DNA of 63,549 bases, the filler included, from Intoshia linei (lineage: Eukaryota > Animalia > Orthonectida): NCBI GenBank assembly GCA_001642005.1. It is 5 parts of 5 records of this genome, joined end to end, with 100 filler letters (N's around TTAATTAATTAA, not from the genome) between each part and the next. Parts side by side here need not be neighbours in the genome. Positions count along the whole stretch, not along the records: positions 32,999 to 56,437 come from LWCA01000562.1; 4 more parts are not named here. The stretch is one strand, 5' to 3'. A program made the position numbers and the translations under genes. The notes beneath the pieces are model-generated. The model was not told the DNA's origin. It worked only from the letters and a program-made list of their open reading frames with translations, and did not search any database. Positions 4,604 through 60,090 of the stretch are shown here, one piece after another; the stretch's first letter is position 1; the number at the start of each line of letters is the position of its first letter.

Positions 4604-5397
4604 CTGTGTTGGATTTATCAAATTAAATCTATGGAATCACATAAACATTCCCGGTTAAAATTTCTTTGAATCTAACTATTTTTTGTGGTCGTCTCGGTAA
4701 TTAATTTTTTTATTCATATCTTGAATTAAGATTCTCGATGTATATTTCAATAAAGTACCAGTTATGAGAAAATGTGCCCAGTATTGCGAAACCTTAAAAT
4801 TTATTTCTGTAGTGTAGTTACTCAAATGACAATATTGTTTTCAAACGTATTAAATCATACTTTTAAGGCAGTGTTTCTCAATCTTTTTTACTACGATTAT
4901 GAGTTATTACTAGGATTATAAAATTTCAAAAAATCGCGGCACCTAAAGCATGATCAAAAATTTTTTTTCAAATGTCGCATATATAAAACAATTTGATTTT
5001 TAATTAAAAAATTAATAACACACGGAATTTAGCCGGTAAAACCAGTTTCCTCCCTCACACAACGAAGAAGCATCCAAGCCCGTGAGAGATAAATTTTTAG
5101 TTAAATATCATTATAAAGAGGTAAGTAACTTATTTCAAGAGTGTTGGACCAGTAAAAACCCACCTTCTTTACAATATTTCTCAAAGCTAATCTGAATTAT
5201 TATTACTTTTTAACATCATTTTTCAGGTTCCCATACTCACAACGTATAATACTTTTATTAAAACTTATTTGATTTAAATTTGAGAAATGATGTTGTTTCA
5301 TTGCATTCAACAGTAATTTAGAAAAACTTTAAATTCAAAAATATCGCATTTATATTTTACGGAACCTTTATTAAATTTCGCGGAACACGGGTTGAGN

Positions 5398-7692: not shown

Positions 7693-8407
7693 NTTTAGAA
7701 AAACTTTAAATTCAAAAATATCGCATTTATATTTTACGGAACCTTTATTAAATTTCGCGGAACACGGGTTGAGAACCACTGTTTTAAGGTTATCTTTTAA
7801 ATATATTTTATTCCTATTAGCATGATGGATTGCTTAGTATTATGACAATACAGTTATAGTTATACAGTGCCGGGTATCGATTCAATTTTGATAAAATCTG
7901 GCCTAATTTTTTCAAGTAAAAAAAATTTTTGAATATTGTAACTATTTTGTGTATTAAATTTAAAATTGCAAGGCAAGAACTTTGGATGGGTGTCTAGGGA
8001 CATATGACTTCGTATGAAGAAGTTGTTCCTAAACTTGTTTCATATTACATTTTCATTTATAGTGAATCATTATAATTAATTTTATTTTCATAACATTTGT
8101 CTATAAGCTAAATTAGAGAATTTCGTGGTGCTTTTTTTTAATATATTAGATTGAGATTATAATTTAAAATTGTCATAAACAGTAAATACCGCTAATTTCT
8201 TTTTTAATGTGATTGTACATATTCAGTATCTGCTTTCGATGAGTAAAAAGTATTTTGTATTAATAATTAACTGAATCAGCACTTTAAAAACATTTCGGGT
8301 TAATTTTACCAAATTGTAATAAATATAAAAATTATAATAACAAAGTTGTATTCAAGTTATTTTAAACTTTTTAAAAATAAGGATTTGAGATGAAAAAAAT
8401 TCGAAGG

Positions 8408-10035
8408 AGTAACGTTGATGAAGATTTATTATATTTAAGTTAACAATCTATATTATATATGATATATTAGAGATATTAAAGGTTTACTGGAAGTTGTTTT
8501 GTTATTTCTATTAATACGTTACTCCTCCCTGTTAAGATTTTTAAAAAGATTTGTGTTGTAATCTTTTAAAAATGGGGGTGGACCATTATGCATTATATTA
8601 TTACTATATTATATATTTATATATATTACTATATTATTATTATATTATTATTATTATTATACATTATTATTGCACCATTATGGTTTCATAATTCAATATA
8701 TTGAAATTTGTGATAGGTAAGGATATAGGAGATTTATAAACCATTTCATATGGCGTTTTGTTTGATTTTGATGTTTTTAATCTTCTTAAAGAAAACAATA
8801 TAAAGGGTATTTGTTGATCCCATTCCTCTTCATAGTCTATATTTATAACTATCAATTTATCGCGTAGTGTCTTATTGAGGCGTTCTACTAACCCGATACT
8901 TTGATGGTTATAGGGTTTACAAGCAGTTTTCTTAATTTGACATTTCTTACAAATTTCCTCAATTTATTTAGATTCGAATTGTGTACCATTATCTGTATGG
9001 ATTTGCTGAGGTATTCCATGAACACAGATTATATTATTTACTATTCCTTTTGCAATAGTTTCTGTATTTATATCCGTAATGGGAATGGCTTCTGGCCATG
9101 ACGAATAGTGATCTACCATTGACAATATATATTTATGTCCGATTTTTGTTGCTATTAGAGGTCCTAATTTATCACATTCCCACAATTCATTAAATTTTGT
9201 TGTTTGAATTTGTTTGAGCTCATTCTGGTGATGTATTCTCCCTGTTTTTGATACATTGCGTTACATAAAGTTTTACCCCTTTGTATATGTTAGGCCAATA
9301 CAGGTATTGTGATATACTATTTATTGTACCATTTATCCCAGGATGCACCGCTAGGTCTGAGTCATGGAAGCATTTTATTACATCTTTTATTTTAGACTTT
9401 GGAACTAATATCCGTTTTAGTCCTTTATTTTCATAAACTATTAAGTTATTATGTATTTGACATTTTTTTTCAATTCTTGACAATTTTAATCCAAGCTTTG
9501 ATATTTTCTCAATTGAAACTGATCAGTATCGTGAATTTTTGTGAAGTATACTGATTCCCATTCCTCTATTTTATCATTATTCTCAACGGAATCTACATCC
9601 CTCGATAATATATCTGCTATTATATTTGTTTTTCCTGGTATATATATTAAATCGAAATCAAATTCTTGTAATAGTTCAATATATCGTTGGACGTCAATAG
9701 AACTTGGAGATTTTGACAGATTTTAATGGGGCGTCTCTACCACGATTACGAACCTTCTGTGAGTTACATGTTTCACATTTGGTCACAAATTCCTTGATTA
9801 AGTTGACCATGTTGCGACTGTGCATTTCTTTACGCAGAATATGATACATTTTGTTCATCCCTGGATGACAGTAAAGCGGGTTCAAATGTAGTTGTTCGAT
9901 TTTTTTTCAATAATTCCTTTAGATACGATTGGCACTATATATCTTTTTCGTCGCAGATACAATTTGTTGTTTTGCACTGAAAGTCGTTTACTTAATTTGT
10001 TGAGATAATTTCCTTTTGAAATCTTCCTATCCGTC
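8408..10035 (-). mobile_element. Decayed Ty3/Gypsy LTR retrotransposon: RNase H end, integrase, PPT and 3' LTR (8408-8523)
   Basis: ELLQEFDFDLIYIPGKTNIIADILSR (RNase H end); HDSDLAVHPG...YW...VTQC (integrase H2C2); DKLGP...VDHYSSWPEA...HGIPQQIHTDNG (core); WDQQIPFILF...TPYEMVY. LTR is 116 bp with inverted ends. Confidence 0.9.
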
Positions 10036-10126
10036 NGTAAAAACCCACCTTCTTTACAATATTTCTCAAAGCTAATCTGAATTATTATTACTTTTTAACA
10101 TCATTTTTCAGGTTCCCATACTCACA

Positions 10127-10226
10127 NNNNNNNNNNNNNNNNNNNNNNNNNNNNNNNNNNNNNNNNNNNNTTAATTAATTAANNNNNNNNNNNNNNNNNN
10201 NNNNNNNNNNNNNNNNNNNNNNNNNN
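10127..10226. other. Scaffold gap with artificial TTAATTAATTAA linker (also ~32899-32998, ~56438-56537, ~59052-59151)
   Basis: An identical 12-mer sits in the middle of four equal N runs; it has stop codons in all frames on both strands. Confidence 0.95.
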
Positions 10227-11706: not shown

Positions 11707-13860
11707 TTAACTTTCTAAACTCTTTCGTAAATGCTGTATTTGGTTATGATATTGCATAAATGTGTGTTCTGGTTTGTATTGTGACATATTTATGAGACAA
11801 GGTTTTTCTATTGGGTAATCAATGTTTCCTTCACAAAATTCAGAGCAAATTTCTGATAATAAATCAAAACATTCGGATAATGATGTGCCACAATCATATT
11901 GTAACTAAATAAAAATATACGCACCGTACAATAATTATTATGCTCGAGTCAAATACAAATTTCAAAAAGGGGGATTTTGTTTCTACCCCATGATGAAATC
12001 ATGAAGTAAATAGTTCTAATTATAAATTTTATTAATTCGTTGTAGTTTTAATTTAAATTTTAAAAAAATGATTTGAAATGACAATTTAAGAATAAAAAAT
12101 TGCGTAGCAATGAAAAAAAATCCGAAGGAATCAATTATATAGATTTCCACTCATATTTCTTCATTGGAAATGTATAGAAATTCAATAGACATTTTTTTTT
12201 AAATTGTAGGATCAATATTTACATTTTCAATTTTTATTTTAATCGAAACATTTGAAAAATATTAAAAATTATTTTTCACCGGGAATGCGTAGATTTTTGG
12301 GGTTAAAATTTTGTATTTATGTCAACTGGAATAAGCTGTATCAGAATAATTTTTTTTTAATTGTACGACCGTTAATTATTTCAAATTTTTTGTTTTACAG
12401 TTTATGTTAATAAAATAATTTTGAAACAAAAAAATAAATATTAAAGTGTTTTTTGACCATGAAGGCGTCACTTAATCAGATTAAAATTTTTTGTGTGTGT
12501 TAACTGGATATAACTGTATCATCCCAAATTTTTTAAAATTTTAGGGCTGTTTTCATTTTTAAAAAAAGGTAATCTCTCTTTTTGACCGTGAAAATTAACT
12601 TTTTTGAGGTTACCATTTATGATAATGCTTATGAATTTAAAAATCATCCCAGAATTTATGTAGTATACAATTATAAGATTTTCTTAATTTTTACAAAAAA
12701 GGGTATTTAGTGGTTTTGGCCGTGAAGATATAAGATTTTGAAATTGAAAATTATCATAATTTTGATGAATTTAAACTTTTTTATTAGAGTGTGTAATTTT
12801 ATAATTCTAGGACGATTTTAAATTTAAAAACAAAGGACAAGGGGGAGTTTTTAATCTTGAAAAACTCAATTTCTGAAATTGAAATTTGCGATGAAACATC
12901 ACTCTGAAAAACTGTTATAAGAATATGGAATTTGTAAAACTAGACTCCCCTTACTTTAATAAACTGGAACAAATAAATAAACAGACATACATTTTAACCA
13001 TTTTTCTTTATATATTTATTAATACATAAAGATCATATAATAAATGAGGTAATTTGTGTTTTTGACCGTGAAGGTGCACATTTTTGGGACTGTCAATTTT
13101 CAAAATAAATGGTTACACACATTTAGCAACTATTACTTTGCATAAATATGGATAATTTCACTAAAATGTAAAAATTAATCTAAAGTTTAGACTTTAAACA
13201 TGGGAGGGAGTTTATTGTTAAAAATAGAATATCAGAATGAATTAAATAATTAGAATTAAAACAACCTCTAGTAAAATGCCGCGAACTTTACAAGTTTTTC
13301 CAATAATAACAGTACCAATCCTAACTGTGAAATCATCTCGATATAAGGTAGACCCTTGTACAAACGAACTAGAACGGGGTAACGCCTCGAAGCACTGATT
13401 CAACTTTGTTTTCAAAAACTTGTCAAAATTAGAATTCATCAAAATTGGATTATGCATACCAGTATCATTTTCAACGACAGCACAAACAGAATTAGATAAA
13501 GCTGAGTGAAATATTTCGGTTATGAATGTATCTTTACCTTTAAATAAAATATAAAAATAAATCTCGGAAGCTATGCAAAATAAAAAAAAGTAATAAAATT
13601 GAACCCAATAATAATTTTACTAAAAATTACGAGTAAAACTTTGAAAATTGTCAATTGTTACAGAAAAAGTTCCACATACAGTATATCCAACTGTCATAAA
13701 CATGTTAATTAGTTTATCTATGCATTCAGACGGTTGTTTGTTTTTATCAATTTTATATCTAATGACTCTAAATATGTACAATTACGGAATAATTAAATAA
13801 TTATAATTTAATAATTGATAATTAACTATTTAAACACAATAATTACAAAGAAACTGTCAT
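11707..13860 (-). CDS. MED20: Mediator subunit 20 (4 exons: ~13860-13847, 13767-13632, 13538-13266, 11904-11707)
   Basis: MTVSLVIRY..CGTFSVTIDNF..EIFHS..NSNFD..GSTLYRDDFTVRIGTVIIG..RGILLE|LQYDCG..CFDLLSE..YKPEHTFMQY aligns with MED20 motifs (GTFxVD, DFxVKVGTV, RGIxVEVEY, YGPxDTMxQY). Confidence 0.85.
12030..12990 (-). mobile_element. Copy of the abundant Helitron-like non-autonomous repeat in a MED20 intron
   Basis: Reverse complement of blocks found at 31830-32620 and 43420-44000 (e.g. CACCGGGAATGCGTAGATTT, GAAGGCGTCACTT). Confidence 0.65.
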
Positions 13861-13993: not shown

Positions 13994-16900
13994 ATGACGG
14001 ACATTGAAAATCCTATTGAAAATATAAAGGAAAATGAAACTGAAATGCAAGTGGAAACTATTACCGAAAAAAAAGATGTAGAGTACACAGGTGAAAAAAT
14101 AGTTGAAGCAGCAGACAACATGAGTGATGATGAATTTGAAGTCACAATGGAAGCCGATAACGTGAAAGAGATTGAAAAACCAGATGAAGAATTGCCAGAA
14201 ATACCTGAAAACGAAACTGTGAATGTCACATATGAACCAAAGCTTCACAATATACCAATGTACGATTATGATTTAACTACAGCAGAATATTTCGAAGACA
14301 AACCTTGGAGTAAACCTGGAGCTGATATAACAGATTATTTTAATTATGGATTCACTGAAGATACGTGGGCTAAATATTGTGAAAAACAGAGAACTTTGCG
14401 CATTGAAAATCAACCTCTAGGCTCTTTTAATAAACCCAAAACAATGAATAGCAAAAACTACAACGGAAATATTGCTGTAATAGGAAATAACGAATCTCGT
14501 CGAAATATGAATAATTTCCAAAACCCAATGATGAATCCTACTGTAAGAATGATGTCTGCTATGCCAATGGGAATGCTTCCTCCTACTGCTGGTATATTAC
14601 ATTACTATATCATTTCATTTTTATTTTAGCTATGATGAATATGCGAATGATGAATCCACAAATGATGAAAAATCCAATGAGGTCATTTTAAATTATTGTT
14701 ACATGCTTGAGGTTTTTTTTATTTTTTAATTTAGAATCAAGGATGATGATTATAAATCACATCGCTCTAGAGATGACAGAGATAGAGACCGTGATAGGGA
14801 TCGTGACAGAGACAGAGATTATGACCGGTAATTTTAAAATTGGTATCTATTTGTTACTTGATTTTATTATTTTTCAACATACTCTTTTTGGCTTCTCGCC
14901 GCGTTTATTAAAATGTTACTGACAAATCAATAATGTTCATAAAAATTTGTGGCGTCAAACTACGCTCGCTGTTTTTTAAGAACTACATTGAATTGAATTG
15001 ATTCATGTCATATTTATTTTCACCATTGAGTCAATTTAATTCTATGTAATTGGGCAAAACCATATGACTCTGACCAAAAAAAACGTGAAATCATTTATCG
15101 GTTGTAAAATTTAAATAAATATTATTTTAATTTAAAATATATATATAAACTATGGAATATTTGTTTGTGTGTGTGTTACTGTTTATTTCAATAACTACCA
15201 GTTTAGAATTTGATAAAGTCCACATTTCAATTACAGTTTTTTCCGGGGTGTTAGCAAAATAAATTTTAACCTCCCAAACTCACATCTTACGGGTCAAAAA
15301 GCCCAATTGTCCTTTTTTTAAAAATCAAACCAGTTGGAGAATTTAAAAAAATATATATGCTCTTACAGATTTTAAAATTATCATAAATTTAAAAAAAATA
15401 TATCTTCAGGGCCAAAACCACAAATTACTCTTCTTTTTTTAATAAAAACAGCCCTAGAATTTCAAAAAATTTACAGGTGGTACAGTTGTATCCTGTTAGT
15501 CTGAATAAGTGACGCCTTCATGGTTAAAAAAGCATTTTAGTTTTCATGCTTTTTTCCCGAAATATTTTATTAACAAAAAATGTGAAATAATTAACGATCC
15601 GAAAATTAAAAAAAAGAAGATTATTCTAATAGAGCTTAGTGCAGTTGATATAGATACAAAAGTTTAACGCGAGAAATCTACGCATTCACAATGAAAAATT
15701 TTTAATATATTATCAACTAATATTTTTCAAATATTTCGATTAAAATATAAATAGTGATCTTACAATTTCACAAAAAAATATGCATTGAATGTCTACACAT
15801 TTCCAATAAAGAAATATGGGTGAAAATCTATATAATTCATTCCTTCGCAATTTTTAAATTTTAAATTCTCATTTTCAAAATATTTTGAATACAAATTTAA
15901 ATAGAAACAACAACGAAACTAAAAGTCATTAACTTTGTTAATATCATTTTTATATTTATTACTATTCTTTGCAATATTGATAAATTCGCCTGAATTATGT
16001 TTATAAAGTGAAGATTTTATTAATTATTGATACATAATTGGTATTTTTAAGTATTTATTAGATTGAAAATGACAAAATAAGTTTTTATAATTTTATTTTT
16101 TCATGAATTTATGCTTTATATCACAATTTTTAGGATTGACTGTTTTTATTTTATTTTTAATATTGTACACTCCGTCCACTAATTTTAAATTGACATTTTT
16201 AACAACATGACATTATTAAATAGTTTCATTATTAATAAAGAAATATTTTTGAAAATTGACATGCAGTATAAGCACGTCACAATGTTGCAACCATCAAAAA
16301 GTATTTTTGAAAAAACCAAAATAAAAAGGTTATTAATAAAATATTTAAAATAACAATAAATAACGTGTCCACAATTATAACAACACTAAGTTTTAATATT
16401 ATAATTACTACATAAATTACATAATAATTGTTTTCAATAGCAATGACTATAGTCAATTCGCTACCCTCCTATCTTTAATATTTCGATTGCACGATTTGGA
16501 CTGAGTTTATCAGTTTAATAACCGTTGCATCAGCGATTGTCCGCCATGTACTTATTATCGCTATTCGTAGTTCGCATAGATTACTATATTGTTTATTTCC
16601 AGCATAGAGTTGTATGGTCAAGATACCCATACGTTTTAAATGGGGTTGATATTTGGAGACAGAGCAGGCATTTATGATCGTCATTTTTATTCTATCAGAG
16701 AGTCTAGGCTTAGCACCAGCTCTTTTTCTTCCATCGTCATATTTTTGGGTATTACTTAAAAATGATAGAACAATATAGAATGATCTATTTGTTGAAAAAT
16801 TACGTTTTAAACGAGCAGCTATTTTTTTATAAGACCTGCGCTTTTGATTGTACACCACAAGCAGAATACAGAAGGGCTGTTAGAGGAGAAACCATCCTGG

Positions 16901-27639: not shown

Positions 27640-30512
27640 TCATTTGGATATAACCCTTGCCAGTACATCCGATTCTCTGAAAATGTAGTGTTCCTAAATT
27701 TTGAATATATATTTAATTATTATAATCCTAAAATTCCGACCCGTGGCAAATTTTTAAATGTTATCATTGATATATTATTTTTCTAAATTTTGTGATTTAA
27801 ATTACTAGCTTGACTGTTTTGTACTTCGTACAAACAGTGGCTAGTTCTGCTGAGGGCATAATTTTTTAATACTACCAAAAAAAGAAATAAAATACTAAAA
27901 GGCTACTATTTGCTTTTACCAATCCTTTAAATCAGCCATTCTTAACGGGGTCCATGAAAATTATATACATTTTCAGTAACATAAAGGCTCAGAAATAATA
28001 ATATAAAACGTGAAAATAATGTAAAAATAAATTCTTTGGTATTAAATAAAATTACTTACAAGTGTAAAAACTTATTGGGAAACCTCCATTGTTCTATTTT
28101 AATAGCATCGTTTTATTTCATTATTTTATTAAAATGTATGACCGAGCCAAGTTTCTAGTCATAAAAAAAAGCTTTAAATTTCAAATTGAAAATGGGACAA
28201 AAAATCAGTCAATATTAATGATATAATGAAGCATCAACCAAGGGATATAAAATATTAATTCTTCACAGGAAGGATAGATAATATAGACTTTTTATTGATC
28301 TGATAAAATATGTAGTAAATAATTAATAATGTACTGTAAACAATACCTGAAAAACATGTTCGATTTTGGAAACATTGACGGGTTAAAGGCTAATATTAAT
28401 AGTTCATCAAGTTTATCACCTCGCAAAAATAGAGTACTCCATGTCTTTTAAGCATCATGCGTTTCACCCAAATGTAATGATTCATTGAAAATTATCATTA
28501 TTATTAATTTTTTTGGGGGTCCACAGCGAAAAAGGGTTGAGAATGCCTGCTTTAAAGGAGTGTTCCAAAGCTTTTTTCACTATGGACTGGTCATTTCACA
28601 TTAAACTGAAGTCAAAGAGAATTATTAACACTTAATTTTATTTTGTTAACATTTGTGTAAAAACTTTAAAAAACAATGTGGTGGTGTTATTTTTGTAATT
28701 GAAGTTGAAAAATTTAAAAATAAATGATTTACATACTTACTCAAAAGACCACCAAAATTGTTATGTGGACCACTGGATGCCGACCCTGCTCTAGAGCGAC
28801 ATAATCATCGATTTTACTAATTTATCATATTATTGATTATTTCAATAAATTTTTGTGGGGTTCTTTACACGGGAAATTTTTTCACCCAATTTTTAAAGAA
28901 TTTGAAGAAACATTTTGGGTCTAAAATTTGGTTGGGTTTTTAAGATATTATTTTTTTTTTACGCCAAATTTTAAAGATTTTTATGATAATTTTTCGACCA
29001 AAATTTAGGAAGGACATTTTTTTTCATCCAATTTTTAAAGAACTTAAAGATAATTTTGGGTCCAAAATTTGGTTGGGTTTTTAAGGTATTTTTTATTTTT
29101 TTTACCCTAAATTTTAAAGATTTTTATGATAATTTTTTGACCAAAATTTAGGAGGGAACATTTTTTTCACTTAAATTAGTGAAATTGAAATTTTTAACAT
29201 GTGTTAACTGGAAAAAACTATTAAATTATAGGACTTAGTTTTTTTCATTTTTTAAAAATGGGTAATTTGGAGTATTCGCTGTGAATATATAAGTTTTGAA
29301 AATTAAAATTGATGATAATGTTTATGATTTCAAAATCAGTCTCAGAATTTAAGTTTTGTAGCATTTTTATTGACTTCTTTATTTTAAAATAAAATGATAA
29401 TTAAATAAAATGTGGTTTTTACCCTAAAAGACTCAATTTTTGAAAATAAAATTTCCGATAAAACCTCACTCTCGAAAAAGTATGTTAAAAATTAGTGTTT
29501 ATAAAATTGTAAGCCTCTTATTTTCTTAAATAACCTGGAACAAACAGACAAATATAAATTTTTAGCTTAATTACTTTCATTAAGATAAGGATAGGAAAAT
29601 AAATTATGTAAACTATAGTGATTTATGATAGTGATAGAGATTATAGTGGTTCGCGATAATTGTATAGTAAATTATCGGTCCACGATGAAGAAAGTGTGGT
29701 AACTCCGGTTCAATCAAAAAATGATCAAAATAAAATTTTACGTCCTATCATTACTATTATGACGCTACCATGTCATTTAAAAAAAATTACAATTTTTAAC
29801 ATTAAAATTACCCCATCAGTTAATAAAACCTTGATACCATCACACTTTAGCAACAATACTTCATCGTCAACATTTATAGTCATTTTGATAAAAGATCCAT
29901 CCTAAAATTTTATTTTTAATTTATTATAAAATTTAAATAATTTATTATAGATATTTGATGGTTATTTGACGATAAGGGTTTAATCCTTTTGATTTCTTAT
30001 ATACTGGTTAATTCGAGAAAATTCATTTCTAGCAAATCACGCATATTTTTTGTCACAAACAAGATTCAAACTTATTTTGCAGATAAAATGAAAATGATTC
30101 AGTTGAAAAATTTCGGATCAAATATTATCGCTAACATTTTGTTCATTTATGCAAATTACCTAGTGAAAACAAAATTCGAGAATTTAAAAATATGTTGGAT
30201 CCATTCTATATTATTTATTAATATATTTAAAATCTTTATTTAATTTTTTTTCTACGTATTTAAAATTTGATAATTGTAAAAAGTTTCATTTCCTGATTCT
30301 GAACTATCACTCACTATCGGTAATTTAGTAGCTTAAATATATTAAAAAACTTCATTTCTCATGCCATTTCCAGTTTCAACAACTTTTGCACGCATCACTT
30401 TTCCTTGTGCTGGTGGAGGGATAATGATACCACTAGTGGTATTGATTGAATGATTAACATTTTTGACCAAAAATCGGTCAAACATTGGTATACAACGTCT
30501 CTTTACAAGTGG
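27640..30512 (-). CDS. HSPE1: 10 kDa chaperonin Hsp10 (exons 30512-30351, 29901-29812, 27693-27640; start exon not found)
   Basis: PLVKRRCIPMFDRFLVK..TTSGIIIP..AQGKVMRAKVVETGNG..|DGSFIKMTINVDDEVLL..DGIKV..|EHYIFRESDVLARVISK* matches GroES/Hsp10; phase-0 GT-AG introns. Confidence 0.9.
27933..28549. mobile_element. hAT-type MITE nested inside a Helitron-like copy (in an HSPE1 intron)
   Basis: Termini CAGCCATTCTTAAC...GTTGAGAATGCCTG with 8-bp TSD CTTTAAAT/CTTTAAAG. Helitron-family sequence resumes on both sides. Confidence 0.7.
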
Positions 30513-31425: not shown

Positions 31426-31821
31426 CTTTTCAAAAAATAAATTAGCGTAAAATGTGTATGCGTATTACTACAACAACAATTATCAAATATACGCGTATTC
31501 AGGCAACATAAATTTTAAATTGTGCAACAGAAACTGCGTGATACGCAACAAGTCGGGTAAAATATTAGGGTATTTATATAATTCCAATGATTATAAATTA
31601 TAAATGTGTACACTAGGGCTGTTTAAAAAAAAATTAGCACATGGGCAGAGGGTATGCTTTAATATGTAAAAAATAATATGCCGTTATTAAAAATTTTCAA
31701 TTCTCAAAAAACATTAAGCGGAATTCAATTAATAACTTTAAAATACTATATAATAAGTGATGTTTATTTTTAAACATTTAGTCGGTAACTAGCGTAATAT
31801 TATAATTCATTTGGTTACATA

Positions 31822-32620
31822 ATAACTTATATAAAATGCGACGCGATTTTTGTTTGTGTGTTTTACTTTATTGAAATAACTAGCACTCTTAGAATTTTTT
31901 AAAGACCACATTTCAATTACAGTTTTTTCTGGGACGTATAATAAGATCAATTTCAACCTCACAATTTCACATCTTAAGGGTCAAAAACCCCTGTTGTCCC
32001 TCTTTTTGAAAAGCAAACAAATTGGAGAATTTAAAAAAATATATACGCTGATGCGGATTTTAAAATCATAACATTTTCATAAATTTAAATTTAAAAAAAT
32101 TATATCTTTATGGCCAAAACCCCAAATTCCCTTCCTTTTTTTGAAAACAGCCCTAGAATTTCAAAAAATTTCAATCCGATTAAGTGACGACTTCACGGTC
32201 AAAAAAGCATTTTAGTATTCATATATTTTTTTTCAAAATATTTCATTAAAACAAAAAATGTAAAATAATTAACGGTCCGAAGATTAAAAAAGATTATTCT
32301 GATAGAGCTTATTCCAGTTAATATAAATACAAAATTTTAACCCCAGAAATCTACGCATTTCCGGTGAAAAATAATTTTTAATATATTATCAAGCAATATT
32401 TTTCAAATATTTCGATTAAAACCAAAAATTGAAAATGTAAATATTGATCCTACAATTTCAAAAAAAAATGTGCATTGTACGTCTACACATTTCAAATAAA
32501 GACATATAGGTGAAAATGTATATAATTCATTCCTTCGGATTTTTTTTTATTACTACGCAATTTTTCAATCTCAAATTTTCATTTTCAAAACATTTTGTTT
32601 AAAATTTAAATTAAAAATAT
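31822..32620 (+). mobile_element. Helitron-like repeat copy (5' part)
   Basis: Starts AACTTATATAAAATGCGACGCGATTTTTGTTTGTGTG, as in the 61379 and 43410 copies. Confidence 0.7.
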
Positions 32621-32998
32621 AGTATGAAACTTTTGAAACCATAGTTAAGTTGACAATTACAAATTTTCACTGTTGATAACTCTGTCACTTCATTGGCAAC
32701 TAAGATGTACTGTTTAAAAATTATCTTTATTATAATAACAAAATGTTATACAGTCAGACAATAGATATTAACATTTTAATCATACATTTTTGTAAACCAA
32801 AACAAAAATTTTTTTTAAAATATACACAACATAAAATTTGTTTTAAATATACATTTTATAATCTATGGGGGTATGAGGGGGCAACAGAAGAAAAGCTCNN
32901 NNNNNNNNNNNNNNNNNNNNNNNNNNNNNNNNNNNNNNNNNNTTAATTAATTAANNNNNNNNNNNNNNNNNNNNNNNNNNNNNNNNNNNNNNNNNNNN

Positions 32999-33510
32999 GG
33001 TTTATCTATCCAAATTTTTTGTTATTTGTGCATACTGTTATGAATACTGAAAGAGCTAATGGTTAAATGGAAAAAAATTACATGCAACCAGCCAGTCTAC
33101 GTTTAGAAACGGATTTTCATTTAATAAATGTTACCAGACTAAGTCTGGGGATCCGTCTACAGCGTTTGTGAATATAATTTACAATATGGTTTCTTGTATT
33201 GATATATTTTGTAATAATGATGTTAACGGATTAATGTTAATGGGCGATGACAGTTTACTGATTCTAAAAAATACCCTCAACGATCCATTTCTTATTACAA
33301 GAACATTTTATATCCAATTCAATTTGACAGTTAAGTTGTTGGAACCTGCGCATGCATATTTTTGTGGCAATTACCTCATATATGTAAACAATATCTATAG
33401 ATTTTTGCCAGATCCATTGAAAAGAATAGAGAAACTTAGAGATTCGTATATTATTTTATGAAATGATCGGTAAATATGATATTGAAAAAGTCGTGTGGGT
33501 ACTTAGGAAA
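32999..33510 (+). pseudogene. Endogenous viral element: alpha-like (virga/nege-like) RNA-dependent RNA polymerase fragment
   Basis: ELMVKWKK[frameshift]LHATSQSTFRNGFSFNKCYQTKSGDPSTAFVNII (motif B), LMGDDSLL (motif C), FNLTVKLL..AYFCGNYLI..FLPDPLKRIEKL. This parallels tobamovirus-type YQRKSGD..T..GN / GDDSL / FCG.Y / DPLK.I.KLG. Confidence 0.88.
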
Positions 33511-34491
33511 TAGACGTTTCATTTTAAAAATATCCTAAAATACGGGATATTCTAGTGGTAATATTTTTTTAACATCATAATTGTTAATATCATCCATATC
33601 AGACGTCAAAAAGTTAGATAAACCCACATGGATTGATGTCATCGTAAAGTTATTTTTGCAAGATTCGTTAGATAAATTTGGATTTTTTTAACAAATCTTC
33701 CAAATGCTTTTGCATTGTTTTAGTATTTACTAAATTCTAATTATTTTTGTAATATTTTTTATAAATAATTTATTGAAAATTGAATCTGTAAATTGTAATC
33801 AATAATTTAAATTCAAGTTGAAAAATAAGATGAAAATAATGTAAACTTAATAAAAATTGGAGGGTGACTAACAATTTTTTTAAGAGAAAATACGCCATAA
33901 AATAATTTTCGAATATGATCTCAAAATTAACACACCATTTGCTTTAGTGGCCATCACTGCGTTATATCGATATATCATCAAGATTTACACTATCGAAAAT
34001 GTCGCACACTATTATAATTTGACATAGATTTTAAAACTCTCGGTTCCAATCTTAGAAATTAGTTTCATAGCTTTTCTCCATTAAAAACACAATAATTTGT
34101 TAATAAATTAATAATACTAACCCTGACTGATTTTTTGGAGACACCGTGACGTAAAATTTACTACGTTGTATGTTTTTACATATGAAACAGCCGCCCACGC
34201 AAAGCTATCTACTTTTTACACTGTAATGACATGCTAAATCAATATAAATTTAAACGTCACTTTGCAGCTGATATAAGGACATCAAATGGTTCGTCAATAA
34301 AAAAGATGTATGGGAATCCTGGTTTAGTTCATTACATACAAACTAAAAAGTATCTTTAAAGTTTAAACTAACTATACTTCAGTGTAAATATTTGCCAAAT
34401 TATCCAATAGTATATAAAAATTGCAGTTTATTATATGTACAATAGTGAAAATTCATTAATCCACGTTTAGTTTAGTCTGAGAATATAAAAA

Positions 34492-52214
<17,723 letters not shown>

Positions 52215-52254: not shown

Positions 52255-53871
<1,617 letters not shown>

Positions 53872-55120
53872 GTTTAAAAATTTAAGTAGCTAATTTTGTA
53901 ATTATTTTCATTCTATCATGTTTATTTAGTTGTTATAGTGTTTTTAATCTTAACTACTGTAATACTAAGACTTCTGTTAGTAGCAACAATTTTTATCGAA
54001 ACTACGTAGTATACTGTAATACAATAACTGTTACAGTTGTATAAAATTGTATAATTTCAAATGTAAACGTAACATCGGAAGAAGGAAATTTTTACATAAA
54101 GGGCTTGAAATTGTATTTTTTATTAAATTTTATTAATGATGGGATAAAAGTCGGATTTTTATCTATATTTTAAATAATTTAATTTTCGCGTACCATTAAA
54201 GCGATATTACTGACTGTAAACAACATTAAAAATTTTTGATAAAAAACGTAATAAATTGACTTGTAATTAGTAAATTAATTTCTTAAAAATTATTTCGCGG
54301 AATTGCATTTGGAAAACGCTGACATGTAATATTACCTTTTATTAAAAATGTCCTAAAATTTTATAAAACATTAATTATCCGATAGTTTTTAAAATTATAA
54401 GCATTATCATAAATCACAACCACAAAAAAATCATGACAAATTTTTTTATAAAATTCTTTACACAAATATTAAAAGAATAAAATTAATTGGAAATAATTCA
54501 CTTTAAATTAAAAAGTAATGTGAAATGACCGGTCCATGGTGAAACAAGTTTGGTAACTACTTCTTTAAATGATTGGTAATAGTGAATACTAGCATTTTTA
54601 GGTAAGATTTTAATGAATTTATTTTTTTGTAGTACTAAAAAATTTCACCCTCTGCAGAGATAGGTGCTATTTGTACCAAGTACATAACAGTCAAATAATT
54701 TTGAAAAAATTAATTTAATAATTACAAGTCAGGTTATGTCGTATTAAGTTTTTTAATGTTGCCTAGTAATATCGATTTAATGGTCCGAGATAAATTTTTT
54801 AATTTATTACCGGCCCGCCGTGAAAAAAGTGTGGGAACCCCTGGGTTAGAACTAAGTACTCAAAAAAAAAAATTTTTCTTCATGGTTGTAAAATTTTGGT
54901 TTATTATTTTGTGGTTGGATTAAGAATTTTTTTTGTAAGGTTTGATATAATCGAATTTTTAAATAATGTACTTTATTCAAATAAACTAATGTTTTAATTT
55001 TGCTAGTAATGCCTAGTAACCAGAAATGCGGGTAACACCCTTGCTCATGGATGATTCAATTTAAAAAAGATACATATAATTATAGATTATACATTGCATG
55101 ATTAACGTTTAATATAACAA

Positions 55121-56031
55121 CTATTGATTATTTATCATCTGTTCTTCTTGAACCTTAGTTTGTTCAAATTTCATTTCTTCACTCTATAAAATAAAAACTG
55201 ACCTGGATCATGATAAAAATAAAACCTGTTGAAGTTGTTGTTTAAGTTCATTATTTTCTTCTGTGAGAGCTTCATTTTTTAGTCTCAATTCAGCATTTTC
55301 ACTTTTGAGTGATTCAACGTCTGAAGTTTCAGGGAAAACACCAGAACAAAGTTGACGTCGAAAATATCTAATATTAACCGTAAGATTTAATTCATTTTTA
55401 TTACATTGTATAAAAACGTTAAAAATTGTAGTTATCAAATTTTTATTCATGGATTGATAATATTTGATAAAATTAAAAATTAATTAAAAATTAAAAAAAA
55501 ATTTTAAAAACTAAAATAAAAAGTTTATCGTTTTTAATCCAATTTTGAAATCCAGATGAAAACATTTTGTAATTTCACTACTTTATCTAAAAATATCAAA
55601 AAAGGAAGGAAATAAAAAACTTTCTAAACATGATTCGTCATTAGTTATTTAGTTATATTTATTTAATTATCCAACACACGTTTAAAATTAATTATTTATT
55701 TTATGTGTTAGTTTAATTAGCCAAAATATTGACTTTTAAACCATTGATTATAATTAACAACAAATATAATTATAGTTGACAAAAAAATCCAATAAAATAA
55801 TTCAAATTGAAAAATTACTCTAATGGGTTTTCAGGTTTCTCTGGTTCTTCATATAATCCTACGAGAACTAAATATGAATAAATGTAAAATTAAATAACCT
55901 AACCTTGAGTTAAATTGTTTAAAATTCCAGAATTATCTAGATATTTTTTAAATTCTTCATGTTTAGAATCTGCAGGCTATTAAAATGATGAAAAAATAAT
56001 AATTTAAAAAAAATACTCTATAACTCGACAT
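55121..56031 (-). CDS. MYCBP: c-Myc-binding protein (AMY-1), 5 exons
   Basis: MSSYR|PADSKHEEFKKYLDNSGILNNLTQ|VLVGLYEEPEKPENPLE|YFRRQL...ESLKSENAELRLKNEALTEENNELKQQLQQ|SEEM...* matches MYCBP. Confidence 0.9.
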
Positions 56032-56668
56032 TTTATTCAAATTTCAATGCAATAACTAAGATAATATACAAATAATTATACTGCTAAGGAAATAAACAAT
56101 TCATATAATACGTACGAGTATCAAAGTGATTTACAATTCACATAATCAAACTTAGAGGGTATATCGAAATAAACAATCAAAATTTCGATACAAACAACAT
56201 TGGAATGTAGTGTTGGTGACCCGATAAAGTCATAATTGACGAATCTAAATAACATTACTACACAACATATTACTATACATTTTAAATATAGTACTATCTA
56301 ATCATATGGATTCATTTTGAACATCTGAAAGCAGAGATTAACATGAGTGGTGGTTTTTATTTGTTTATACACTATATGTACACTAGGGTGGACATAATTT
56401 CAATATTTATGAATTTCTGATAGGACAAGATCCAAAANNNNNNNNNNNNNNNNNNNNNNNNNNNNNNNNNNNNNNNNNNNNTTAATTAATTAANNNNNNN
56501 NNNNNNNNNNNNNNNNNNNNNNNNNNNNNNNNNNNNNTTCTAGTAAATTCTAGCCACAATTGTATATATAATATGTATAATAATAATTTAAGTATAAAAT
56601 TTTAAACACAAGTTAATTCTAATATTTAATTTTAACTTAAAAGAACATTTTTAAATTATTGGAAATGT

Positions 56669-57645: not shown

Positions 57646-59379
57646 AAGCAATTTTTAAAGATTCTTATTCTCTTAAAGTTATGAAATTGTCGAAATGTAT
57701 GAAATAAATTGTTTTTTCCAGTATTTAACACATTAGAGAACATTACTGTTTAGCGTAAAAAACAAATTAATAAACCCAACATTTTGAGATTCATACATTG
57801 TGTATGTAATTGTACATTCAAATATAGATTTACATTTTCGAAAAACTAAATTTTGTTTAAAAAGTTGTAATTTTAAAAAATAATAAGTGGCCATTTATAA
57901 TTTATTGAAAAATTATGAAATAAATTAATTTGATTTTTATATCGGTTGATTCTTTGATTTTTATAAACTAGAATGTTTTCATGAAAAGTTGAAATTCTGG
58001 GAAATTTTGGATGTTTTAAATAATTAACAAGTTTTGCAACGTTTAAATTGTTACACATGTAATTTTGTTAAAAATTTGACTTTTATATTTGTTTGATTTC
58101 ATTTATTGAATGTTTTGTAGTGTTAACTTTGGCGATATAGTGTTTAGAGATAATTTTCAATTTTTCCTTCATATTTTGAAATTAAGTAAAATTTTATAAT
58201 GGGTAATACGTTTGGATACATTGGATAATTGGACATGAAATCCCGTCTCAATAGATTCATTTCATTTGCATTCATTTTTTCAGGGTATTTTTTAGTATGA
58301 AATGAGATTTCAATTTCTGGTAAACTATAAAAAGATTTTTGACTAAAACTCATACTTGAATCTGTTGAGTTTTAGGACGAATTACCACGTATAGTTGATA
58401 GTTGACTATTTCTATTGGTATTATTGCAAATTGATCTATTATCAGAGCAACTCTCTGATTCAATGTCACAGTTTTTTAATTTAGGGTATTTTCCATAATG
58501 ATTTGCTCCCACTTGGCTAGTATTTTAAATGAAAAAAGTAATAGAATTTTAAAAACCATAAATTTTTTCATTGTTTAGAAAATAATAAACATTATCATAA
58601 ATGGCAACCTGAAATAAGTGCATTGTCACGATCAAAACCACAGATTACCTTTTTTTAAAAATGAAACTAGTCCCAGTATTTAAAAATTTAAAAAAAAATT
58701 ACAATTAATACAGTCATATGCTATTAACACACACAAAAAAATTCAATCTGACAAAGTGCCGCCTTCACGGTCAAAAAAGCACTTTAAGTTTAATTTTTTT
58801 TAAACTATTTCGAAACTATTTTATTAATACAAAAATTTAAAATAATTAACGGTCCACCAATTAAAAGAAATAATTATTCTAATACAACTTATTCCAATTG
58901 ATATAGCGACAAAATTTCAACCTCATAAATCTACGCATTCCCGGTGAAAATAACTTAATATATTATCAACCAATATTTTTTAAATTTTTGGATTAAAATT
59001 AACCCATTAGTGACCGATGACTACATATGTAGTCATCCATGTTTCATATTGNNNNNNNNNNNNNNNNNNNNNNNNNNNNNNNNNNNNNNNNNNNNTTAAT
59101 TAATTAANNNNNNNNNNNNNNNNNNNNNNNNNNNNNNNNNNNNNNNNNNNNACACTTTTAGTGCTAATTGCCCTTGATTCTTTGATGGGTGTGACACCCT
59201 AGTGTTTACACCAGACAATATTTTTTAAACTTATTCAATTATAAATTCTAATTAAAACTACACAATATATGATGTTTAGTAGTGAAATAGCTATATACAT
59301 GTCTAGTGCATAATTTTCACTTTACAATATGAGTTTGGCAGAATGCATGAACTCGAAGAGTGAATGCATTCAACACACG

Positions 59380-60090
59380 AGTTTTGTCTATTTGTTTTGC
59401 ATTTGGTTATATCTATTAGTGGCACGAATTCTGGCCAACCCGTATAATGATCCACTATGTTAATTATATATTGATATCCGTTAATGAAAATTGAAAATGG
59501 TCCCAATATATCGACCTGCCTTCTGACTTGTACATATAAGACTAGAAATATAAATATCGAATAAGATTGTAAATTTTAGTTACGCCGGCGTGACAATATA
59601 AGTCAGATCGATAATAATGGGTGATAATATTTAATCTGTCTGACATGGCTATGACTGGCAGTAATTTGTTGGGTCTTGAATAATTGAGGAGTTTATTTTT
59701 AGCCTTTAATTTCTTTTCATATCTATAATATTTATTTGATAATTAATTTATTATTTAGTAATATATTTTTACGGCTTCGATACAATCTGTATCTTTTGAT
59801 TGGCCATGTTTCCAATTGATTACGTCAGCATTTTGTACAATAGCGTTAGTAAATTCAGGACGTGATAATATATCGGCTGTGTCGTTTAAATGACCGGGCA
59901 CGTAGTTAATTGTAAAATCAAATTGTTCCAATCTTTCGATCAACGAAATTGACGGTTTGTACGGTTTTTAGATTGTCGAATGTGGACGACGGGGTTGTGA
60001 TCGGTTATTACAGTGAAATGACGACCATAAAGATAGTATTTAAACTTTTCGATAGCCCAGACGATTGCCAAAAGTTCTTTATCTATTTTT
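59380..60090 (-). mobile_element. Ty3/Gypsy pol remnant (RNase H + partial integrase)
   Basis: [29 protein letters not shown]; IERLEQFDFTINYVPGHLNDTADILSR; DILGPF..YIINIVDHYTGWPEFVPL. Confidence 0.88.

What the first reader, a model, noticed from the sequence alone, without database searches (positions are those of the whole stretch)
32999..33510. Fossil RNA-virus polymerase (alpha-like supergroup) integrated in an animal genome
Seen: RdRp motif B (YQTKSGDPSTAFVN), motif C (MGDDSLL), FN..VK, YFCGNY and PDPLKRIEKL, in the order and spacing known for Martellivirales (Virgaviridae/nege-like) RdRP_2. Upstream, one extra A in an A-run breaks a W..LH motif, and stops follow the core. Known: these viruses have no DNA stage, so DNA copies arise through retroelement reverse transcription. 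Inference: this is a degenerate endogenous viral element recording infection by a probably undescribed virus lineage of this host, and a possible small-RNA template. It abuts a scaffold gap, so more of the viral genome may be hidden there.
Basis: partly seen in the sequence, partly recalled or inferred. Interest (0 to 1): 0.9.

Follow-up and report, generated by a model that had tools for sequence, protein, structure and literature searches.

The report
RNA-virus fossil in orthonectid worm genome
A broken 455-base piece of an RNA virus's copying enzyme sits beside ordinary genes of the tiny parasitic worm Intoshia linei; it is likely one of several decaying copies left by past infections with an unclassified group of invertebrate viruses, a known kind of fossil in an animal group whose viruses are barely studied.

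Summary
Confirmed: 33060-33458 encodes RdRP_2 motifs B-E (Pfam E 9.6e-24). Three corrections. (1) The element ends at about 33453; the stops after it lie in non-viral flank. (2) It is not Virgaviridae or nege-like: trees place it (99-100% support) in an unclassified Martellivirales clade with Stellipti viruses 1/3 and Wenling and Shenzhen toga-like viruses, and AU tests reject both named groups. (3) The 'gap' is a fixed 100-nt spacer with stops in all six frames, at the end of a 23,439-nt record. That record carries Intoshia linei Tip60 and a FAK-like gene, so the host is an orthonectid. A DNA run holds a second copy (97% identical, differences fit neutral drift) whose contig runs 512 nt further upstream. 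An annotated I. linei protein (OAF65857.1, 52% identical over 63 aa) is a more distant RdRp piece, fused in its gene model to a Gag-like segment. Best reading: a decaying, duplicated non-retroviral endogenous viral element, likely made by retrotransposon reverse transcription. The right junction rests on the assembly alone; small-RNA use is untested. A 2019 paper already noted a viral-family RdRP in this proteome in one sentence. New member of a known kind; interest 0.42.

The parts
32999..33453 (+). Endogenous viral element: fragment of a Martellivirales RdRp gene, cut on the left by the end of the record and on the right by a junction with non-viral DNA
   Evidence: Pfam RdRP_2; profile matches 33060-33443 and 33072-33437; second copy in run X1 matches 32999-33453 and then leaves
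32999..33070 (+). Upstream piece in another frame than the core, ending in the W of the W...H motif; one in-frame stop at 33041
   Evidence: +5.2 bits on the clade profile, 15 of 500 shuffles reach it; weaker on the broad profile
33071..33077 (+). A-run where the reading frame breaks
   Evidence: sequence; frame comparison
33132..33173 (+). RdRp motif B
   Evidence: alignment A1
33240..33260 (+). RdRp motif C (GDD at 33243-33251)
   Evidence: GDD invariant in A1
33318..33437 (+). FN..VK, FCG and DP.KR.EKL motifs (motif D/E region and start of the thumb; motif labels recalled)
   Evidence: aligned with alphavirus nsP4 7f0s_A, E 2.8e-4
33453..33461 (+). Right junction (about 33453/33454) and first stop codon (33459-33461), which lies on the non-viral side
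   Evidence: X1 record 1 leaves the window sequence after 33453; no RdRp score beyond
33454..33860 (.). Non-viral flank with dispersed-repeat character; no credible Pfam hit in six frames
   Evidence: diverged related contigs in X1 (33468-33700, 31 other letters, 16 gaps; 33685-33799); only two below-cut-off Pfam hits
32899..32998 (.). Synthetic 100-nt spacer (44 N, a palindromic 12-mer with stops in all six frames, 44 N); marks the end of a record, not shown to be a scaffold gap
   Evidence: identical spacers at 10127, 56438, 59052; segment 32999-56437 is 23,439 nt, the length of the public record that carries P0156
34471..48222 (+).
   Evidence: spliced contig with GT..AG joints; open reading frame across four exons; tyrosine-kinase Pfam hit at 44306, E 2.3e-4, under the cut-off
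52258..55976 (-). Host Tip60/KAT5 gene that identifies the record as Intoshia linei
   Evidence: MOZ_SAS E 1.2e-73; best hit P0156 I. linei 96%, next hit 71%; exon pieces up to 96-100% identical

Best explanation
This is a truncated, frame-broken piece of an RNA-virus polymerase gene on a record with Intoshia linei genes, most likely a non-retroviral endogenous viral element that a retrotransposon's reverse transcriptase copied into the germ line and that was later duplicated and left to decay. Shown: RdRP_2 identity; membership of an unclassified Martellivirales clade; truncation at about 33453; a frame break and a stop upstream; a second copy about 3% diverged; a third, far more distant RdRp piece annotated in the same species. 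Inferred: a (+)RNA virus of this clade replicated in the orthonectid; its RNA was reverse-transcribed by an LTR retrotransposon through template switching, as shown for mosquito cells (PMC6797480); the DNA copy was duplicated within the genome; this copy cannot make a polymerase (motif A lies off the record, most of the thumb is missing) and drifts neutrally. The distant piece points to a second, related virus.
For: Identity. Placement: clade of 11 of 52 rows at 100/99 and 8 of 30 rows at 99/98 under a mixture model; 10 of 11 clade proteins share a W...H-to-motif-B spacing of 21 against 22 in 70 of 72 IMG/VR RdRps. DNA, not live virus: the copy has a frame break and a stop; it lies on one record with spliced host genes; run X1, guessed by the tool to be DNA, holds a related 1,941-nt contig. 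Duplication, not allele: 13 substitutions and 2 one-base gaps in 455 nt, against 2, 0 and 0 differences in the 1,392-, 480- and 347-nt flank contigs of the same run. Neutral drift: 3 of the 10 differences that fall in the core are synonymous; neutral expectation 0.28, and dN/dS of 0.1 is rejected at P 0.001. Truncation: five full-length clade proteins run 175-224 aa from the start of motif B, the window 109, and motif A lies 49 aa before motif B while the record holds 44 codons. Recurrence and retroelement link: P0019 (OAF65857.1, I. linei, record of 11,959 nt) is 52% identical over 63 aa, and all 10 listed structural neighbours of its residues 1-66 are clusters of Gag or retroelement proteins, TM 0.78-0.88; gypsy-type integrase remnants lie elsewhere in the window.
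Against: The join between the element and the FAK-side flank rests on the assembly alone, 455 nt from a record end and next to repeat-like DNA. X1 may be the sample from which the window was assembled, so it is not independent support. No LTR, target-site duplication or poly(A) was found at this locus, so the retrotransposon step is inferred from the other locus and from literature. The Gag likeness of P0019 is under the Atlas score bar in every row, Pfam finds nothing there, and P0019 is an automatic gene model that could join unlinked pieces. WINDOW plus P0019 as sisters is not well supported (88/25, 87/79, 78). The trees rest on 126-128 columns. The neutrality test uses 10 sites. Whether the virus infected the orthonectid or the animal it parasitises cannot be told.
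Confidence: 0.82

Rival explanations
1. The element is a real endogenous viral copy in this genome, but its position next to the FAK-like gene is an assembly join through the neighbouring repeat at a record end.
For: It lies at the record end beside repeat-like DNA; the X1 contig with the related copy continues into other sequence after 33453.
Against: The window copy differs from the X1 copy at 15 places in 455 nt while unique flank is nearly identical, which fits a separate locus better than a misplaced piece of the same one.
Confidence: 0.1
2. The copies are kept as templates for antiviral small RNAs (piRNA-like memory), as in Aedes mosquitoes; neutral-looking protein decay would not contradict this.
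For: Several copies and two divergent RdRp pieces in a compact genome; Gag-like neighbour of P0019; precedent in PMC6797480 (passages).
Against: The locus lies among ordinary single genes, with no retroelement ORF on its own record; I found no passage showing Piwi or Argonaute in this species.
Confidence: 0.12
3. The sequence comes from contaminating DNA of the animal that the orthonectid parasitises, or from a live RNA virus, and was joined to the record by error.
For: Orthonectids are parasites taken out of host tissue (recalled), so host DNA can be carried over; the element has 31% GC at all three codon positions, unlike a host exon (42/35/21%).
Against: A live virus cannot carry a frame break and a stop in its polymerase; the related X1 contig is not at low depth (19.3 against 6-12 for unique-looking flank contigs; the tool warns that depth is no copy number); a second related RdRp piece lies on another, 11,959-nt I. 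linei record.
Confidence: 0.05

Closest known systems
[quoted passage not shown]
   Same: One well-supported clade with the window; RdRP_2 at the end of a 2,400-2,700-aa replicase with an SF1 helicase (for P0002, P0003, P0005); QT.SGD motif B and 21-residue W...H spacing.
   Different: Only 36-43% identical over about 120 aa; those are intact exogenous genomes, this is a 455-nt broken DNA fragment; no helicase, methyltransferase or capsid piece was found in the window.
Intoshia linei hypothetical protein OAF65857.1 (P0019; UniRef name 'RdRp catalytic domain-containing protein')
   Same: Same species, same clade, nearest row in every tree that holds it; 52-53% identical over motifs B-C.
   Different: Another record (11,959 nt); ends just after motif C; fused in its gene model to a Gag-like segment; too distant to be a recent duplicate.
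[quoted passage not shown]
   Same: Fragmentary, frame-broken, duplicated RNA-virus gene in an animal genome; Martellivirales EVEs are known in arthropods (PMC12548735, passage); LTR-retrotransposon recombination is the shown route in Aedes cells (PMC6797480, passages).
   Different: Host is an orthonectid, not an arthropod; the source clade is not virga- or nege-like; no piRNA-cluster context or small RNAs shown.
Virgaviridae (tobamovirus-like) and nege/kita-like viruses
   Same: Same Pfam family, motif order and B-to-GDD spacing.
   Different: AU tests reject grouping with the tobamo-like rows (p 0.0031) and with the Negev / Tomato fruit blotch / Hubei virga-like 11 / Ceratitis negev-like rows (p 0.0026).

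Membership tests
Martellivirales RdRp (Pfam RdRP_2, PF00978) | Profile match above the curated cut-off | tested here: met
   84.5 bits against 27
Martellivirales RdRp (Pfam RdRP_2, PF00978) | Motifs B, C (GDD) and the downstream FCG / DP.K motifs in canonical order and spacing | tested here: met
   B-to-GDD 37 as in 66 of 72 homologues; B-to-DP.K 93, within the 88-98 seen in 62 of 63 measurable homologues
Martellivirales RdRp (Pfam RdRP_2, PF00978) | Motif A | tested here: inconclusive
   Expected 49 aa before motif B; the record starts 44 codons before it
Martellivirales RdRp (Pfam RdRP_2, PF00978) | Linked methyltransferase and SF1 helicase | tested here: inconclusive
   None in the window, as expected for a fragment; the whole genome is not held
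Virgaviridae (tobamovirus-like) | RdRp groups with tobamo-like RdRps | tested here: not met
   AU p 0.0031. The five rows carry no names; two of them (L015, L044) were checked and have a 30K-type movement protein downstream
Nege/kita-like viruses | RdRp groups with Negev virus, blunerviruses and insect virga/nege-like viruses | tested here: not met
   AU p 0.0026; names
Stellipti/Wenling/Shenzhen toga-like clade (unclassified) | Supported monophyly with the named viruses | tested here: met
   100/99, 99/98, 99; the clade was seen in the tree, not named beforehand
Non-retroviral endogenous viral element | RNA-virus gene present as DNA on a record with host genes | tested here: met
Non-retroviral endogenous viral element | Disabling changes and neutral divergence | tested here: met
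   frame break, stop, truncation, 3 of 10 synonymous
Non-retroviral endogenous viral element | Virus-host junction shown by reads or PCR | tested here: inconclusive
   only assembled contigs could be laid; see Tried and rejected
Non-retroviral endogenous viral element | Adjacent retroelement or target-site duplication | tested here: inconclusive
   none at this locus, whose left end is missing; Gag-like lead at P0019
piRNA-producing EVE | Antisense small RNAs bound to Piwi proteins | not testable with these tools
   no raw small-RNA reads offered

The most novel reading that the evidence does not exclude
Orthonectids, among the most reduced of all animals, have hosted their own lineage of toga-like Martellivirales: at least two distinct viruses, each other's nearest known relatives, were captured through Gag-bearing LTR retrotransposons and amplified in the Intoshia genome, giving the first placed fossil record of the viruses of this group and sequences with which to look for the living ones.
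Probability: 0.4. Interest if true: 0.6.

Novelty: new member of a known kind. Interest (0 to 1): 0.42.

Why it matters
Non-retroviral EVEs are common and well described in arthropods, so the kind is not surprising. What is useful is the host and the placement. It extends an unclassified clade of invertebrate Martellivirales (polyclad flatworm, mite-associated and other metagenomic viruses) to Orthonectida, shows more than one integration in a compact parasite genome, and flags an annotated I. linei 'gene' (OAF65857.1) as a likely Gag-plus-virus chimera rather than a host gene. It makes one question directly testable: whether this parasite shares viruses with the animal it lives in or carries its own. 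Prior art lowers the novelty: PMC6396948 states in one sentence that the I. linei proteome holds an RdRP of a viral family, probably acquired from viruses; which family and which protein are shown only in a figure that I could not see, and its filter asked for a near-complete domain, so it may be a different gene from P0019. I found no paper that describes this locus or places an orthonectid EVE (searches; supplements); the library lacks most subscription journals.

Tried and rejected
No whole genome is held, so no genome-wide search for helicase, methyltransferase or capsid EVEs was possible. Word-index protein searches found no relative, neither 'longer' (112 candidates, none passed) nor 'near' (2 candidates); pattern scans found none in viral contigs (34 stretches) or metagenome contigs (83 stretches); these are sensitivity limits, since phmmer later gave 285 hits at E <= 0.001. 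Sequencing runs: no RNA holder listed. X2 and X3 hold small shares (0.11, 0.07) and show contigs with GT..AG joints over the host gene. A depth-3 X2 piece over about 32999-33155, sharing 3 listed differences with the X1 copy, appeared but not, so I draw nothing from it on a third copy or on transcription. No listed contig carries the window's own letters across 33454-33858 or bridges the junction; the tool states that a hole proves nothing. X4 and X5 showed nothing over the element apart from one 21-nt chance match in X4. The first tree, with IMG/VR rows only, left the window on a long unplaced branch (2.87) and did not finish its careful search; it was superseded once closer relatives were found. 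A single-sequence AlphaFold model had mean pLDDT 45 and was not used. The Atlas feature search gave RdRp clusters at 0.89-0.94 but ranked RdRP_1 first; Pfam and the trees outweigh it. Reading the upstream part in the same frame as the core was considered and scored no better than leaving it out. No terminal repeat or target-site duplication stood out among 13 direct families and the 25 listed of 73 inverted pairs. Earlier notes of this scan held nothing on this genome or sequence. Rows left out: 48 of 120 loci were dropped before the profile (4 lacked the motif in frame, the rest were redundant or under 180 aa); the trees use hand-picked subsets (52, 30, 30 rows, each including one added row, P0276) of the 168-row tree; 30 of the 150 listed hits were looked up for names. 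The synonymy count uses the 10 of 12 listed substitutions that fall in the core frame (13 are counted in table 8).

Full report
1. The observation. Pfam RdRP_2 matches at E 9.6e-24, 84.5 bits against a cut-off of 27, over profile positions 257-371 of 440. The one solved structure found at E <= 1 is an alphavirus nsP4 (7f0s_A, E 2.8e-4). Their profile hits the window only at 33060-33443 (100.6 bits). The ORF scores 110.7 bits where the best of 1000 shuffles scores 2.7. The B-to-GDD spacing of 37 is that of 66 of 72 homologues.

2. Boundaries and breaks. Left: the record begins 44 codons before motif B, while motif A lies 49 residues before motif B in five full-length relatives, so motif A falls just off the record. 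The first 72 nt read best in another frame than the core: +5.2 bits on a clade profile, reached by 15 of 500 shuffles, and +2.2 bits on the broad profile, where the best of 300 shuffles did better. That frame has a stop at 33041. The frame break in the A-run near 33071-33077 is therefore modestly supported; it is helped by the finding that 10 of 11 clade proteins have a W...H-to-motif-B spacing of 21, against 22 in 70 of 72 IMG/VR RdRps. Right: relatives run 175-224 residues from the start of motif B, the window 109. No frame after 33453 adds score on either profile, six-frame Pfam scans of 33453-33862 give only two hits below cut-off, and the related contig of run X1 leaves the window sequence after 33453.

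3. The 'gap' and the host. The gap is 44 N, a palindromic 12-mer with stops in all six frames, and 44 N; the same spacer occurs four times. The piece between two spacers, 32999-56437, is 23,439 nt. The best hit of the Tip60 ORF on this piece is an Intoshia linei protein, P0156 (96% against 71% for the next hit), whose public record is 23,439 nt long; its exons map back at up to 96-100%. So the spacer marks a record end, nothing shows that the left neighbour is linked, and the host is the orthonectid I. linei (orthonectids are simplified worm-like parasites placed near or in Annelida; PMC12249979, search listing only). A spliced FAK-like gene starts about 1 kb downstream on the same strand.

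4. More than one copy. Of 5 runs listed, X1 holds 0.64 of the sampled words and may be the sample behind the assembly. Its record 1 (1,941 nt, depth 19.3) matches 32999-33453 with 13 substitutions and 2 one-base gaps, and runs 512 nt further upstream and 976 nt further downstream into sequence not in the window. Flank contigs of the same run differ from the window at 2 of 1,392, 0 of 480 and 0 of 347 nt, so 3% is not allelic. Of the 10 listed substitutions within the core, 3 are synonymous; the neutral expectation is 0.28, and dN/dS of 0.1 gives P 0.001, of 0.2 P 0.02. That fits duplication after integration and drift better than two captures of circulating strains. What the extra bases of record 1 encode was not examined. 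No listed contig bridges the right junction, so the exact locus rests on the assembly.

5. Which virus. phmmer over 1.84 billion representatives gave 285 hits at E <= 0.001, 17 at 1e-10 and none at 1e-30. The best are Stellipti virus 3 (42%), an unnamed Logan protein (39%) and, fourth, Shenzhen toga-like virus / Dermatophagoides pteronyssinus virus 4 (44%); P0002, P0003 and P0005 are replicases with an SF1 helicase and a terminal RdRP_2. In a 168-row quick tree the window falls in a 10-row clade at SH-aLRT 99; careful trees on subsets give 100/99 (52 rows) and 99/98 under a mixture model (30 rows). The clade also holds Stellipti virus 1 and Wenling toga-like virus. The supplement of PMC9241645 lists Stellipti virus 1 from Stylochus ellipticus as Martellivirales, family unassigned, best hit Wenling toga-like virus (rows seen; main-text passages). 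AU tests reject grouping the window with the tobamo-like rows (p 0.0031; two of five rows checked for a movement protein) or with the nege/kita rows that include Negev virus, Tomato fruit blotch virus and Hubei virga-like virus 11 (p 0.0026). Flatworm viruses (Psilosi, Polynigra, Dicrocoelium) lie in the sister group (97/88, 91/86).

6. A second, distant piece in the same species. P0019 is I. linei hypothetical protein OAF65857.1 on an 11,959-nt record. Residues 68-139 match RdRP_2 (E 8.3e-10) and are 52% identical to the window over 63 aa, with motifs B and C kept. It is the window's nearest row in every tree that holds it, but the pairing is not well supported (88/25, 87/79, 78). Its first 66 residues have no Pfam hit; all 10 listed structural neighbours in the Atlas are Gag or retroelement clusters at TM 0.78-0.88, each under the score bar. 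This is a lead for retrotransposon capture, not proof.

7. How it most likely arose. Shown: identity, clade, truncation, breaks, a second near copy, a distant third piece. From established knowledge: Martellivirales have no DNA stage (recalled), and in Aedes cells viral RNA is copied into DNA by recombination with LTR retrotransposons during reverse transcription and can integrate (PMC6797480, passages). Inferred: a virus of this clade replicated in the orthonectid, was captured that way, was duplicated, and decayed; a second related virus was captured separately. This copy cannot make a polymerase. A small-RNA role is possible but has no support here; I found no passage on Piwi, Argonaute or Dicer in this species (PMC6543705, passages; search). 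Confidence 0.82; rivals: misplaced by assembly 0.10, contamination 0.05, and, as an overlay, small-RNA template 0.12.

8. Novelty. The kind is known: Martellivirales EVEs occur in arthropods (PMC12548735, abstract and passages), and this scan has noted RdRp relics in other genomes (unchecked notes). For this species, PMC6396948 says in one sentence that I. linei has an RdRP of a viral family, probably from viruses (section 13 and passages; 7 supplementary files without the name; Fig 1A not visible). The two supplements of PMC12548735 do not mention Intoshia or this accession. PMC11097642 and PMC13524379 name Orthonectida only in taxon lists (passages); the supplements of PMC11097642 were not read and could hold virus reads from this group. 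Nine searches found no description of this locus or placement of an orthonectid EVE; most subscription journals are not covered. Verdict: a new member of a known kind, in an unusual host and from an unclassified clade. Interest 0.42.

Noticed in passing
P0019 (OAF65857.1), residues 1-66: The annotated Intoshia linei protein looks like a chimera of an LTR-retrotransposon Gag piece and a viral RdRp piece; all 10 listed structural neighbours are Gag or retroelement clusters, each under the score bar.
   Followed up: partly
run X1 record 1, laid on window 32999-33453: A 1,941-nt contig at depth 19.3 (flank contigs 6-12) holds a second copy and runs 512 nt upstream and 976 nt downstream into sequence not in the window; it may stand for more than one locus.
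   Followed up: partly
window 10127-10226, 32899-32998, 56438-56537, 59052-59151: Four identical 100-nt spacers with a six-frame-stop palindrome split the window into five pieces; neighbours across them need not be linked.
   Followed up: yes
window 8667-9522 (-): Broken LTR-retrotransposon integrase (Integrase_H2C2 E 4e-15, rve E 4e-11); a further integrase-like ORF by eye at 59303-59575 had no Pfam hit.
   Followed up: no
window 35213-35629 and 34833-35630: Two alternative first joints into the exon at about 35630 of the FAK-like gene in runs X3 and X2, suggesting alternative first exons.
   Followed up: no
window 35809-36043, 1068-1363, 28702-28788: A very high-copy short dispersed repeat in an intron of the FAK-like gene (summed depth above 2000 in X1); other MITE-like families recur at 12036-12690, 15109-16173, 31809-32619, 43393-44203.
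   Followed up: no
P0047 (ENA, 2,429 aa, contig 27,767 nt): A clade member on a contig far longer than the 7.7-9.2 kb contigs of P0003 and P0276, with 326 aa after the DP.KR motif; it could be another endogenous copy in some other organism.
   Followed up: no
P0008 (JGI/IMG, 1,026 aa): A related RdRP_2 protein with a NADAR domain fused at its C-terminus (E 1.8e-23).
   Followed up: no
window 5152-5241 = 10037-10126 and 5317-5396 = 7694-7773: Exact 90- and 80-nt duplicates beside single-N positions, likely overlap artefacts of the assembly.
   Followed up: no
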